Assembly (NCBI RefSeq): GCF_036507355.1
Contig: NZ_AP027877.1
Strand: one strand, 5' to 3'
From: Escherichia coli
GTDB lineage: Bacteria > Pseudomonadota > Gammaproteobacteria > Enterobacterales > Enterobacteriaceae
Length of the DNA stretch: 64,000 nt
The position numbers were made by a program. Positions 24,801 to 27,800 of this stretch are shown piece after piece. Numbering within the stretch: the first letter of the stretch is position 1; every line of letters begins with the position of its first letter.

Positions 24801-27800
24801 GATGGAGCGACTGGCGCTGTTTTTAAGTGTGGAACCGACGCCGGATTTAACGCCGCAGTTTTTGCAGCTGCTACTGCCGGAACTGGCGCGCGAGTCGGCG
24901 AAAATTCCCGCTCCACGCTTGCTGACACCACAACAGGCACTGGAGAAATTTAAAGGCGATAAAACAGCAGCGGCGAATTATTTAGGCATCAGCCGGACGA
25001 CGTTCTGGCGGCGGCTGAAAAACTGAACTGCCGAATGCAGCGCGAACGCTTTATCCGGCATAAATTTCAATAGATGATCACCGATAAACTTACGCATCGG
25101 GGATGTTTACATAGGATTCAGAATTACTTCTTCTTATAAATATTTGCCGTGCCGTGGATCTTATTGTCAGTTTGACCGGAGGTCAGTACCAACACATCAG
25201 CCCCTTTTTCATCCGCTTTTTTGATCAAATCTTCTTTCGCGTCTGCGGTCGACATTTCATTGCTGGTTGAAATATCACCTATTTTTTCATATTGCGATTC
25301 GACTTTTTCAAATTCCGCTTTAGTCATCAATTCAGCGGCATAGACATTGGTAACGGCAAACGCTAACGCACCGACTAACATTTTAGAGATTATTTTCATA
25401 TTACGGCTCCAGAGTTGTTATCACACTATCACCCACCGACATTATTGGGTTGATTAATAATTAGTTCAGTCAGGGCATAAACGCCAGTAACCGGAAATAA
25501 GACACTTTGTGATCTCTCTCGCACCCGATTATTTTTGGTAGAAATATGATGAAGTTACTTCACTTATTTATGGATGAAATCACTATGGAGCCTTTGCACG
25601 CCGTTTACCTGACCGTGGGACTGTTCGTGATTACTTTTTTTAATCCGGGAGCCAATCTCTTTGTGGTAGTACAAACCAGCCTGGCTTCCGGTCGACGCGC
25701 AGGGGTGCTGACCGGGCTGGGCGTGGCGCTGGGCGATGCATTTTATTCCGGGTTGGGTTTGTTTGGTCTTGCAACGCTAATTACGCAGTGTGAGGAGATT
25801 TTTTCGCTTATCAGAATCGTCGGCGGCGCTTATCTCTTATGGTTTGCGTGGTGCAGCATGCGCCGCCAGTCAACACCGCAAATGAGCACACTACAACAAC
25901 CGATTAACGCCCCTGGTATGTCTTTTTTCGCCGTGGATTAATTACCGATCTCTCTAACCCGCAAACCGTTTTATTTTTTATTAGTATTTTCTCAGTAACA
26001 TTAAATGCCGAAACACCAACATGGGCACGTTTAATGGCCTGGGCGGGGATTGTACTCGCATCAGTTATCTGGCGAGTCTTTCTTAGTCAGGCGTTTTCTT
26101 TGCCCGCTGTGCGTCGTGCTTATGGGCGTATGCAACGCGTTGCCAGTCGGGTTATTGGTGCAATTATTGGTGTATTCGCGCTACGCCTGATTTACGAAGG
26201 GGTGACGCAGCGGTGAGCAGATAATTTACTCTCTACGTAATCAACCTGATTTGCCGAATCCCGACCATCGGCGATGATAGCCCCCGTAATGCGTGGTCCT
26301 TATTTCCGATAAGTTTACTTGAGTCTTTAGCTTCCCATTTCAGCCCACTCTCCCCTGTGTGGGCTTTTTTCATTGGTCTGACCCGTCCTGAATAGCCAAA
26401 CAATGGCAATGTTCCACTTTGCAGGGATGATAATAAGGGGATCTGATTCAGAAGAGTTTTGAAAAGTTGGACCGCCATCGAGGCCTCGAACCCCGTACCA
26501 TACAACAATCCTGGTTGTCGTCTGCTCTTCCTGATGAGCTAATGGCGGTTTTTGATATGAGCCTTACAGCATATTTTCTGTCAGGCTTGAGTGCGATGCG
26601 TAAGGTACAGAAAAGACCCCACACAAACATGATGGAATTATGATTTTTTTCATATGAATGTCAACCCACACATTCACAAAACATCTGCATGAGATCATTT
26701 TTTATACACCGCATAGCTGCAAAACCACAGCTGGTGCTTTTTTAAGCGAAGCGTCGCCGATCACAACAAAATATCGGCGAAAAAGGCGGTGGAATGCCAT
26801 TTGGCATACGGATATACAGATGAAATGATTACCTGCATTGCGATTCACTCTCTGGTGGAATAACAACTTGCAGGTGGAACCCTTTCTGAACTAAAGAGTG
26901 TAGCGGATTTTAACGTGCTTATTTACAGGATAATATCTGTCACCTAATTCCTGGACTCTATTAGATATCCATTCATTTAATCGCGCATCATCTCTGTATG
27001 TTTTTACGTCCAGAACAGAGAGCAATAACATCACCAGTGATTCAGGAAAAACAGGGTAGATATTTTTTAAGTGTAATAATAATCCATGCGCAAGCGCCTG
27101 CTTAATGGGCGCGTCTGTCTCCGGAATAGACGACATTTCGCGAAGCCATTTTTCCACATGCATACACTCTTTCCCTTTAGGGAAAAGTCTCAGCAAAGGC
27201 ATATGGTGTTCAAGAAGAATACATTTGCAATCTGTTCGCACTGAATCGATAAACTGCACTAATTTCTTAAGCCCGGTAAAGCGTCCAGCCTGCACATTTG
27301 CTTTAATATCAAGAAACGCATCATCCTGGTCATATACCCAAACTGTCCCTTTTTGATTTTCAAGTATGCGAAAAACAAACTTAACCGGGTGATCAGGGTA
27401 ATCCATCCAGTCATAAAATCCAGGGAAATCATTAAACTGCACATTTATGGCGAGTGCGTTATCGTCTGACCACTCACAGTCTCGTACGGCAGCCATGAGA
27501 TGAATGAGTTTGTCGTCATCGACTAAATCATCACGACAATCATAAGGATAATCATAATATTGTTTAATCAAAACCTTGAATATATCGACACAGGAAACCA
27601 GGGAGCTTTTGATATCCTCTGGTAACTGATTGTTTTTAACCGTATTAAGTATGCTTTGTTGCGTATATGGCATCAAATTATTGTGCGAAGCTTTTAATGA
27701 TATCATCGCGATCTCTCTTAAATAAAAATAAACGTCGCAGATAATAAAGCTCTAATTAAACCAGGCACTATCAGAAATCGCTCATAACTAACGTGTGAAG

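What the first reader, a model, noticed from the sequence alone, without database searches (positions are those of the whole stretch)
25546..26216. yahN exporter gene interrupted by a single-base frame break at a C-run
The N-terminal 120 or so codons and the C-terminal 60 codons of a LysE/RhtB-type exporter are both recognisable but in different frames. The conserved sequence continues in the shifted frame across GCCCCTGG (25909-25916); total length is exactly one nucleotide short.
Basis: seen in the sequence. Interest (0 to 1): 0.3.

Follow-up and report, generated by a model that had tools for sequence, protein, structure and literature searches.

The report
Frameshifted yahN exporter pseudogene
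The amino-acid exporter gene yahN of this E. coli strain has lost one C from a run of five, which breaks the reading frame; this is an ordinary gene-inactivating mutation, already annotated in other E. coli, or possibly a single-base assembly error.

Summary
Window 25546-26216 is yahN, a LysE/RhtB-type exporter of 223 aa when intact. It is 671 nt instead of 672. It is base-for-base identical to an intact E. coli allele except that GCCCCCTGG has become GCCCCTGG (C-run at 25910-25913).

The native frame holds for codons 1-123. Eight wrong residues (GMSFFAVD) and a TAA at 25939-25941 follow. The remaining 100 native codons sit in the -1 frame up to the native stop.

Close relatives of this strain (99.97-99.99% identical over up to 46 kb) all have C5 and an intact yahN, so the deletion is private to this genome. 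It is the only 1-nt indel against the nearest relative across a stretch holding 199 homopolymers of 5 nt or more. The assembly is therefore not riddled with homopolymer errors.

The same C5-to-C4 change occurs on other yahN haplotypes. It is present in 6 of 5,426 complete RefSeq genomes, where it is annotated "frameshifted", and its product is indexed in 283 blocks of the public assembly collection. A C6 allele and a neighbouring G deletion also exist, so the site is a small natural slippage hotspot.

Most likely (about 65%) this is a genuine recent loss-of-function mutation. About 30% goes to a lone consensus error. There is no evidence for programmed recoding. The finding is ordinary and already known.

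The parts
25546..26216 (+). yahN pseudogene, 671 nt; the intact gene is 672 nt and encodes 223 aa
   Evidence: 100% identical to intact yahN of UTME-3 apart from one gap. The same event is annotated 'yahN, LysE family transporter, frameshifted' in RefSeq genomes.
25546..25914 (+). Native-frame N-terminal part, codons 1-123 (M1-P123). It holds the first three hydrophobic segments.
   Evidence: ORF list and translation. Pfam LysE positions 2-93 of 193. Hydropathy scan.
25910..25913 (+). C4 run, the site of the 1-nt deletion. Intact alleles have C5. In the intact allele the last two Cs plus TGG form a CCTGG (Dcm-type) site.
   Evidence: Alignments.
25915..25941 (+). Out-of-frame tail GMSFFAVD and premature stop TAA (25939-25941)
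   Evidence: Translation.
25914..26216 (+). C-terminal 100 native codons (W124-R223) plus the native stop, now in the -1 frame and untranslated as such
   Evidence: Frame-3 translation. tblastn found a second match in frame 3.
26034..26216 (+). 60-aa ATG-initiated ORF. It is only the tail of yahN, and was called as a separate gene (BED23604.1) in the source annotation.
   Evidence: Pfam LysE positions 138-193.
25923..25929 (+). T TTT TTC, in register with the mutant frame. It is a formal -1 slippery heptamer, part of the gene's native T6 run, and no stimulator was found.
   Evidence: motif scan. (downstream fold -4.8 kcal/mol, z=+0.88).
25124..25399 (-). yahO, the intact divergent upstream neighbour
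   Evidence: tblastn 100% over 91 aa.
26236..26478 (-). yahM, the intact convergent downstream neighbour, so no polar effect is expected
   Evidence: tblastn 100% over 81 aa.

Best explanation
yahN is inactivated in this genome by a genuine, recent, strain-private deletion of one C from a C5 homopolymer. The likely cause is replication slippage.

Translation proceeds normally for 123 codons, which cover the first three membrane segments of a LysE-fold exporter. It then enters the wrong frame in the central loop and stops after 8 residues. The C-terminal half of the transporter is not made and export activity is lost.

yahN is monocistronic, lying between oppositely oriented neighbours, so nothing else is affected. 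The run is a small natural hotspot: the same deletion, a C6 insertion and a G deletion 6 nt away recur in other E. coli lineages. yahN is broken in many different ways across the species, which fits weak selection on it.

Shown: the deletion, its privacy to this strain, its recurrence elsewhere, and the truncated product. Inferred: that it exists in the cells rather than only in the assembly, slippage as the cause, and loss of function.
For: The lesion:
- One gap and no substitutions against an intact allele.

Privacy to this strain:
- Close relatives found through exact YahJ, LacZ and PrpD proteins include GCA_905398585.1, GCA_021425525.1, GCA_047852605.1, GCA_016660925.1 and Logan SRR32181686. 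Each of those whose fetched DNA reaches yahN carries C5, and its stretch overlapping yahN differs from the window by only 1-6 SNPs.

Assembly quality:
- Against contig CAJPYR010000021.1, window 1-45955 shows three SNPs, a copy-number change in a 93-nt repeat array, and this indel.
- All three SNPs are synonymous transitions, as expected of real selection-filtered divergence.
- None of the other 199 homopolymers of 5 nt or more, and none of the 99 CCWGG sites, differs.
- The two homopolymer frameshifts in lacA, which looked like assembly noise, are reproduced exactly in independent draft assemblies.

Natural recurrence of the allele:
- The same C4 allele sits on at least three other yahN haplotypes (L014/16/18/19, L015, L017).
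- Its product P0018 is seen on 207 contigs and indexed in 283 blocks.
- It is in 6 RefSeq complete genomes, and the two inspected (TUM9754, S163-2) annotate yahN as frameshifted.
- The window allele has different flanking markers (362A, 390T against 362G, 390C), so it arose independently.
- C6 occurs in L007 and a G deletion in L020-23.
Against: - No reads from the source strain are available.
- Every close relative has C5.
- The exact truncated product is on record only once, as BED23603.1 on one contig. The allele therefore rests on a single assembly.
- The source genome was not found in the RefSeq complete-genome collection: the best match over 24 kb is 98.1%. The reason is unknown.
- The run overlaps a Dcm site next to a homopolymer. 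To my own knowledge this context is error-prone for some nanopore chemistries.
Confidence: 0.65

Rival explanations
1. Assembly or consensus artefact. The strain really has C5 and an intact yahN, and one C was dropped from the homopolymer when the consensus sequence was called.
For: - The deletion is private to this one assembly. All close relatives have C5, and the exact product is on record once.
- It lies in a homopolymer that overlaps CCTGG.
- The genome was not found in the RefSeq complete-genome set.
- Other C-run length variants occur in assemblies that are visibly error-laden: L018 and L019 have many broken neighbouring genes.
Against: - Across about 46 kb compared with the nearest relative, no other homopolymer (199 of 5 nt or more, including T7 and C7 runs) and no other CCWGG site (99) differs.
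- The other differences are three synonymous transitions, which look biological.
- The lacA homopolymer frameshifts are confirmed by independent drafts.
- The same C4 allele occurs in draft assemblies and metagenome contigs whose neighbouring genes are intact (L014-L017), and in RefSeq genomes.
Confidence: 0.3
2. Functional recoding or an on/off switch. Either the C-run works as a phase-variable tract, or the frameshift is bypassed by a -1 ribosomal slip on U UUU UUC (25923-25929). Such a slip would give near-native YahN with GMS in place of WYV at residues 124-126.
For: - C4, C5 and C6 alleles all exist in the species.
- A formal slippery heptamer lies 10 nt downstream, in register with the mutant frame, and a -1 slip there restores the native frame.
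- The other common allele, the G deletion, also lies just upstream of it.
Against: - The tract is only 4-5 nt long.
- Nearly all of the roughly 5,000 RefSeq complete genomes that carry the region have the in-frame gene. Only 6 match the C4 allele exactly on the common haplotype, and none on the window's.
- There is no downstream structure: -4.8 kcal/mol, z=+0.88.
- I saw no Shine-Dalgarno-like stimulator upstream on reading the sequence.
- Heptamers without stimulators shift only 2-10 times above a background of about 0.05% in E. coli (PMC4066793). That is about 0.5% at most.
Confidence: 0.03

Closest known systems
yahN of E. coli (b0328 in K-12, from my own knowledge of the K-12 numbering): LysE/RhtB-family putative amino-acid exporter
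   Same: Same locus (prpR-yahO-yahN-yahM-yahL), and 671 of 671 aligned bases identical to an intact allele (WP_078164749.1). The repaired protein is an exact match to a 223-aa protein seen on 92 contigs.
   Different: One C is missing. The product is 131 aa (123 native) instead of 223.
RefSeq 'yahN, frameshifted' pseudogenes in E. coli TUM9754, S163-2, 19SZHZ886Rt, PE164, E105 and DETEC-P61
   Same: The identical lesion, C5 to C4 at the same run, giving the same type of out-of-frame tail (…APGMSFFA.D*). The two inspected, TUM9754 and S163-2, are annotated as frameshifted pseudogenes.
   Different: They sit on a different yahN haplotype (362G/390C and about 11 other substitutions). The window's event is independent and, on its own haplotype, unique so far.
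Homopolymer slippage frameshifts in dispensable genes, for example lacA in this same window
   Same: A single-base deletion in a short mononucleotide run inactivates a non-essential gene.
   Different: The two lacA lesions are shared by the whole lineage. The yahN lesion is confined to this genome.

Membership tests
LysE/RhtB transporter family (Pfam PF01810; NCBIfam TIGR00949) | Full-length match to the family profile above the curated cut-off | tested here: met
   The repaired protein scores PF01810 at E=8.8e-60, 201.9 bits (cut-off 25.6), positions 2-193 of 193. It scores TIGR00949 at 237.5 bits (cut-off 183.95). The actual 131-aa product covers only positions 2-93.
LysE/RhtB transporter family (Pfam PF01810; NCBIfam TIGR00949) | About six hydrophobic membrane segments in a protein of roughly 200 aa | tested here: inconclusive
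   A Kyte-Doolittle scan of the repaired protein gives clear segments near residues 14-42, 58-79, 85-103, 163-181 and 199-221. A sixth, around 137-155, falls below my threshold. No dedicated topology predictor was available.
LysE/RhtB transporter family (Pfam PF01810; NCBIfam TIGR00949) | Amino-acid efflux activity | not testable with these tools
yahN orthologue | Conserved position between yahO and yahM next to prpR, and near-identity to annotated yahN | tested here: met
Frameshifted pseudogene | An indel not divisible by three relative to intact orthologues, a premature stop, and no compensating indel | tested here: met
   A single 1-nt gap, a stop 8 codons later, and the rest of the gene identical in the other frame.
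Frameshifted pseudogene | The lesion is present in the organism's DNA, not only in the assembly | not testable with these tools
   No reads are available. Indirect evidence is given.
Programmed -1 ribosomal frameshift site | Slippery X XXY YYZ heptamer in register | tested here: met
   T TTT TTC at 25923-25929, in the mutant frame. This is fortuitous: it is the gene's native T6 run.
Programmed -1 ribosomal frameshift site | A stimulatory downstream structure or upstream SD-like element, and conservation of the two-frame arrangement among orthologues | tested here: not met
   The downstream 81 nt fold at -4.8 kcal/mol, z=+0.88. Nearly all of the roughly 5,000 RefSeq complete genomes carrying the region have the single-frame gene.
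Phase-variable (contingency) homopolymer locus | A long tract (typically 7 nt or more) with frequent length switching among close relatives | tested here: not met
   The tract is 4-5 nt. All close relatives examined at this site have C5. The C4 allele is in about 0.1% of complete genomes.

The most novel reading that the evidence does not exclude
The 9-nt segment GCCCCCTGG of yahN, a C5 run fused to a Dcm/Vsr CCTGG site, may be a true species-wide indel hotspot. The -1 alleles that arise there (C4 and the G deletion) may persist because they are slightly leaky. Both lie just upstream of the in-register U UUU UUC heptamer, where a -1 slip would rebuild a full-length YahN differing at three residues or fewer (three for the window's C4 allele: GMS for WYV). 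That would make these alleles hypomorphs rather than nulls.
Probability: 0.05. Interest if true: 0.3.

Novelty: already known. Interest (0 to 1): 0.07.

Why it matters
It matters little beyond annotation hygiene.

- The two small ORFs in the source record (BED23603.1 'hypothetical protein' and BED23604.1) should be merged into one yahN pseudogene.
- If the deletion is real, this strain lacks a poorly characterised amino-acid exporter with no known strong phenotype.
- The survey adds a small point: yahN is recurrently and independently inactivated in E. coli and Shigella, and the C5 run is a repeat offender.

Tried and rejected
- **Shigella-style decay with IS elements.** The many matches per genome suggested it. 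Rejected: the many places per genome probably come from the REP-like repeats and an IS3 fragment far from yahN, which I did not verify, and 39 of 41 neighbouring genes are intact.
- **An assembly full of homopolymer errors.** lacA has two more homopolymer deletions that are absent from all RefSeq complete genomes. Rejected: both are reproduced exactly in independent drafts of the same lineage, and no other run differs over 46 kb.
- **Exact look-ups of the truncated product.** The 131-, 130- and 123-aa forms are not on record. Only the 118-aa form is (BED23603.1), and it is not in the contig index. The window's exact BetT is not on record either, so the right-hand 18 kb could not be compared with relatives.
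- **Same-lineage search through PrpR.** This failed because that allele is very common. YahJ, LacZ and PrpD worked.
- **Literature.** A search for 'yahN' mostly returned an author's surname. A search for the source of the genome (guessing ECOR) gave nothing.
- **Programmed frameshift or phase variation.** Considered and rejected.
- **Mismatch-repair mutator signature.** The private changes are three transitions and one homopolymer indel, which is too few to say anything.

Full report
**1. The observation**

Window 25546-26216 (+ strand) is 671 nt long, which is 2 mod 3.
- Frame 1 gives a 131-aa ORF (25546-25941) ending …QQPINAPGMSFFAVD*.
- Frame 3 reads …PWYVFFRRGLITDLSNPQ…YEGVTQR* up to 26216.

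I aligned it with the annotated intact yahN of E. coli UTME-3 (L001:3147-3818, 672 nt). There are no substitutions and a single gap: intact GCCCCCTGG against window GCCCCTGG at 25909-25916.

Codons 1-123 are native. Eight wrong residues and a TAA (25939-25941) follow. The remaining 100 native codons (W124-R223) lie in the -1 frame from 25914. The '60 C-terminal codons' are just the ATG-initiated ORF at 26034-26216.

**2. What the gene is**

The locus order is prpB-prpR-yahO-yahN-yahM-yahL-yahK, as in annotated E. coli chromosomes.
- The repaired protein matches Pfam LysE end to end (E=9e-60). It passes the curated cut-off of NCBIfam TIGR00949, a homoserine/threonine efflux subfamily.
- The truncated product covers only model positions 2-93 of 193.
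- A hydropathy scan places the break in the central loop, after three hydrophobic segments. At least two clear C-terminal segments are lost.
- yahO (divergent) and yahM (convergent) are intact, so no polar effect is expected.
- Papers give only annotation-level function: 'amino acid exporter'.

**3. Where the window comes from**

The 118-aa form of the N-terminal ORF is exactly BED23603.1 ('hypothetical protein VEE46_33710', E. coli, contig of 4,643,937 bp). The 60-aa ORF carries the adjacent accession BED23604.1. The source annotation therefore split the pseudogene into two small genes.

The genome was not found among 5,426 RefSeq complete E. coli genomes. The best match over 24 kb is 98.1%.

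**4. Is the deletion shared?**

Not on this haplotype.
- No RefSeq complete genome matches the 91 nt around the run exactly. The best is 98.9%, a one-base gap in every hit listed.
- I found the strain's own lineage by exact-protein look-ups of rare alleles: YahJ, LacZ and PrpD.
- These returned GCA_905398585.1, GCA_021425525.1, GCA_047852605.1, GCA_016660925.1 and Logan SRR32181686.
- Each relative whose fetched DNA reaches yahN has C5 and an intact gene, and its stretch overlapping yahN differs from the window by only 1-6 SNPs.

**5. Real mutation or assembly error?**

I compared the window with contig CAJPYR010000021.1 of GCA_905398585.1 over window 1-45955.
- Window 1-19047 is 100.000% identical.
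- Elsewhere there are three SNPs (30505, 33294, 35821), one extra 93-nt unit in a REP-like array, and the yahN C.
- All three SNPs are synonymous transitions. That looks like real, selection-filtered divergence rather than noise.
- The stretch contains 199 homopolymers of 5 nt or more, 28 of them G/C runs, and 99 CCWGG sites. Only the yahN run differs.

lacA at first looked like further evidence of error. It carries two homopolymer deletions that no RefSeq complete genome shares. Both are reproduced exactly in the independent drafts, so lacA is a true lineage-wide pseudogene and the assembly is faithful there.

Evidence against a real mutation:
- The allele rests on one assembly.
- All relatives have C5.
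- The run overlaps a Dcm CCTGG site. To my own knowledge this context can mislead some long-read consensus callers.

I put a real mutation at about 65% and a lone consensus error at about 30%.

**6. The site is a natural hotspot and yahN is often broken**

The same C5-to-C4 deletion occurs elsewhere.
- Its product P0018 (…PISAPGMSFFAAD) is seen on 207 contigs and indexed in 283 blocks, including draft assemblies and metagenome contigs with intact neighbouring genes.
- It sits on at least three other yahN haplotypes.
- It is in six RefSeq complete genomes. In the two I inspected, yahN is annotated 'frameshifted'.
- The window's allele has different markers 3 nt upstream and 25 nt downstream of the run (362A/390T against 362G/390C), so it arose independently.

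Other lesions in yahN:
- A C6 allele in L007.
- A G deletion 6 nt downstream in L020-23. Its product P0019 is indexed in 73 blocks.
- At least four other single-base deletions, in L003, L006, L009 and L012.
- Three loci (L004, L005, L010) have no indel but still have the terminal 60-aa ORF called separately, presumably because of nonsense substitutions.

This is the pattern of a dispensable gene under weak selection.

**7. Recoding considered**

In the mutant frame the gene's native T6 run reads U UUU UUC (25923-25929). A -1 slip there would restore the native frame and give …INAP-GMSFF-RRGL….

There is nothing to stimulate such a slip.
- The downstream 81 nt fold at only -4.8 kcal/mol, which is weaker than the shuffled controls (z=+0.88).
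- I saw no Shine-Dalgarno-like element upstream on reading the sequence.
- Heptamers without stimulators shift only 2-10 times above a background of about 0.05% in E. coli (PMC4066793).
- A 4-5 nt tract with C5 in nearly all genomes is not a contingency locus.

**8. Verdict**

This is a routine homopolymer frameshift pseudogene of yahN. The identical lesion is already annotated in other E. coli genomes, and here it is private to one strain or one assembly. Novelty: already known. Interest: low.

Noticed in passing
window 10418-11024 (+): lacA is a pseudogene with two 1-nt deletions, one at a C-run near 10611 and one (A6 to A5) near 10782. No RefSeq complete genome shares them, but both are identical in independent drafts of the same lineage (GCA_905398585.1, GCA_016660925.1). 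The pseudogene is therefore real and lineage-wide.
   Followed up: yes
window 36867-37232: A tandem array of 93-nt REP/BIME-like units lies between yahI and yahG. A related copy lies at about 14491-14585. The window has one more unit than the draft relative. In NCTC10444 the array is annotated as a 'hypothetical protein'.
   Followed up: partly
window 30505, 33294, 35821: These are the only three SNPs against the nearest relative over about 46 kb. All are synonymous transitions. Together with one homopolymer indel this resembles a mismatch-repair-type spectrum, but the numbers are far too small to judge.
   Followed up: partly
window 56313-57256: A 134-aa fragment of a tyrosine-type DNA invertase (IpbA/FimX-like) abuts a partial IS3-family transposase on the opposite strand. 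The invertase looks truncated by the insertion.
   Followed up: no
window 45028-48807 (-): A 1259-aa AIDA-I/EhaA-type autotransporter lies between pdeL and betT. It is absent at this position in NCTC10444.
   Followed up: no
window 49318-51348 (-): The window's exact BetT protein is not on record in the public gene index, whereas its exact LacZ, YahJ and PrpD are. BetT may therefore carry a private amino-acid change.
   Followed up: no
window 57646-63970: This is a block of ORFs with little or no NCBIfam annotation. It includes a tyrosine-recombinase-like protein (57646-58272) and a serine-recombinase-like protein (60050-60748). It is poorly covered by the best-matching E. coli genomes, which cover only 67% of 44400-64000, so it is probably an accessory island.
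   Followed up: no
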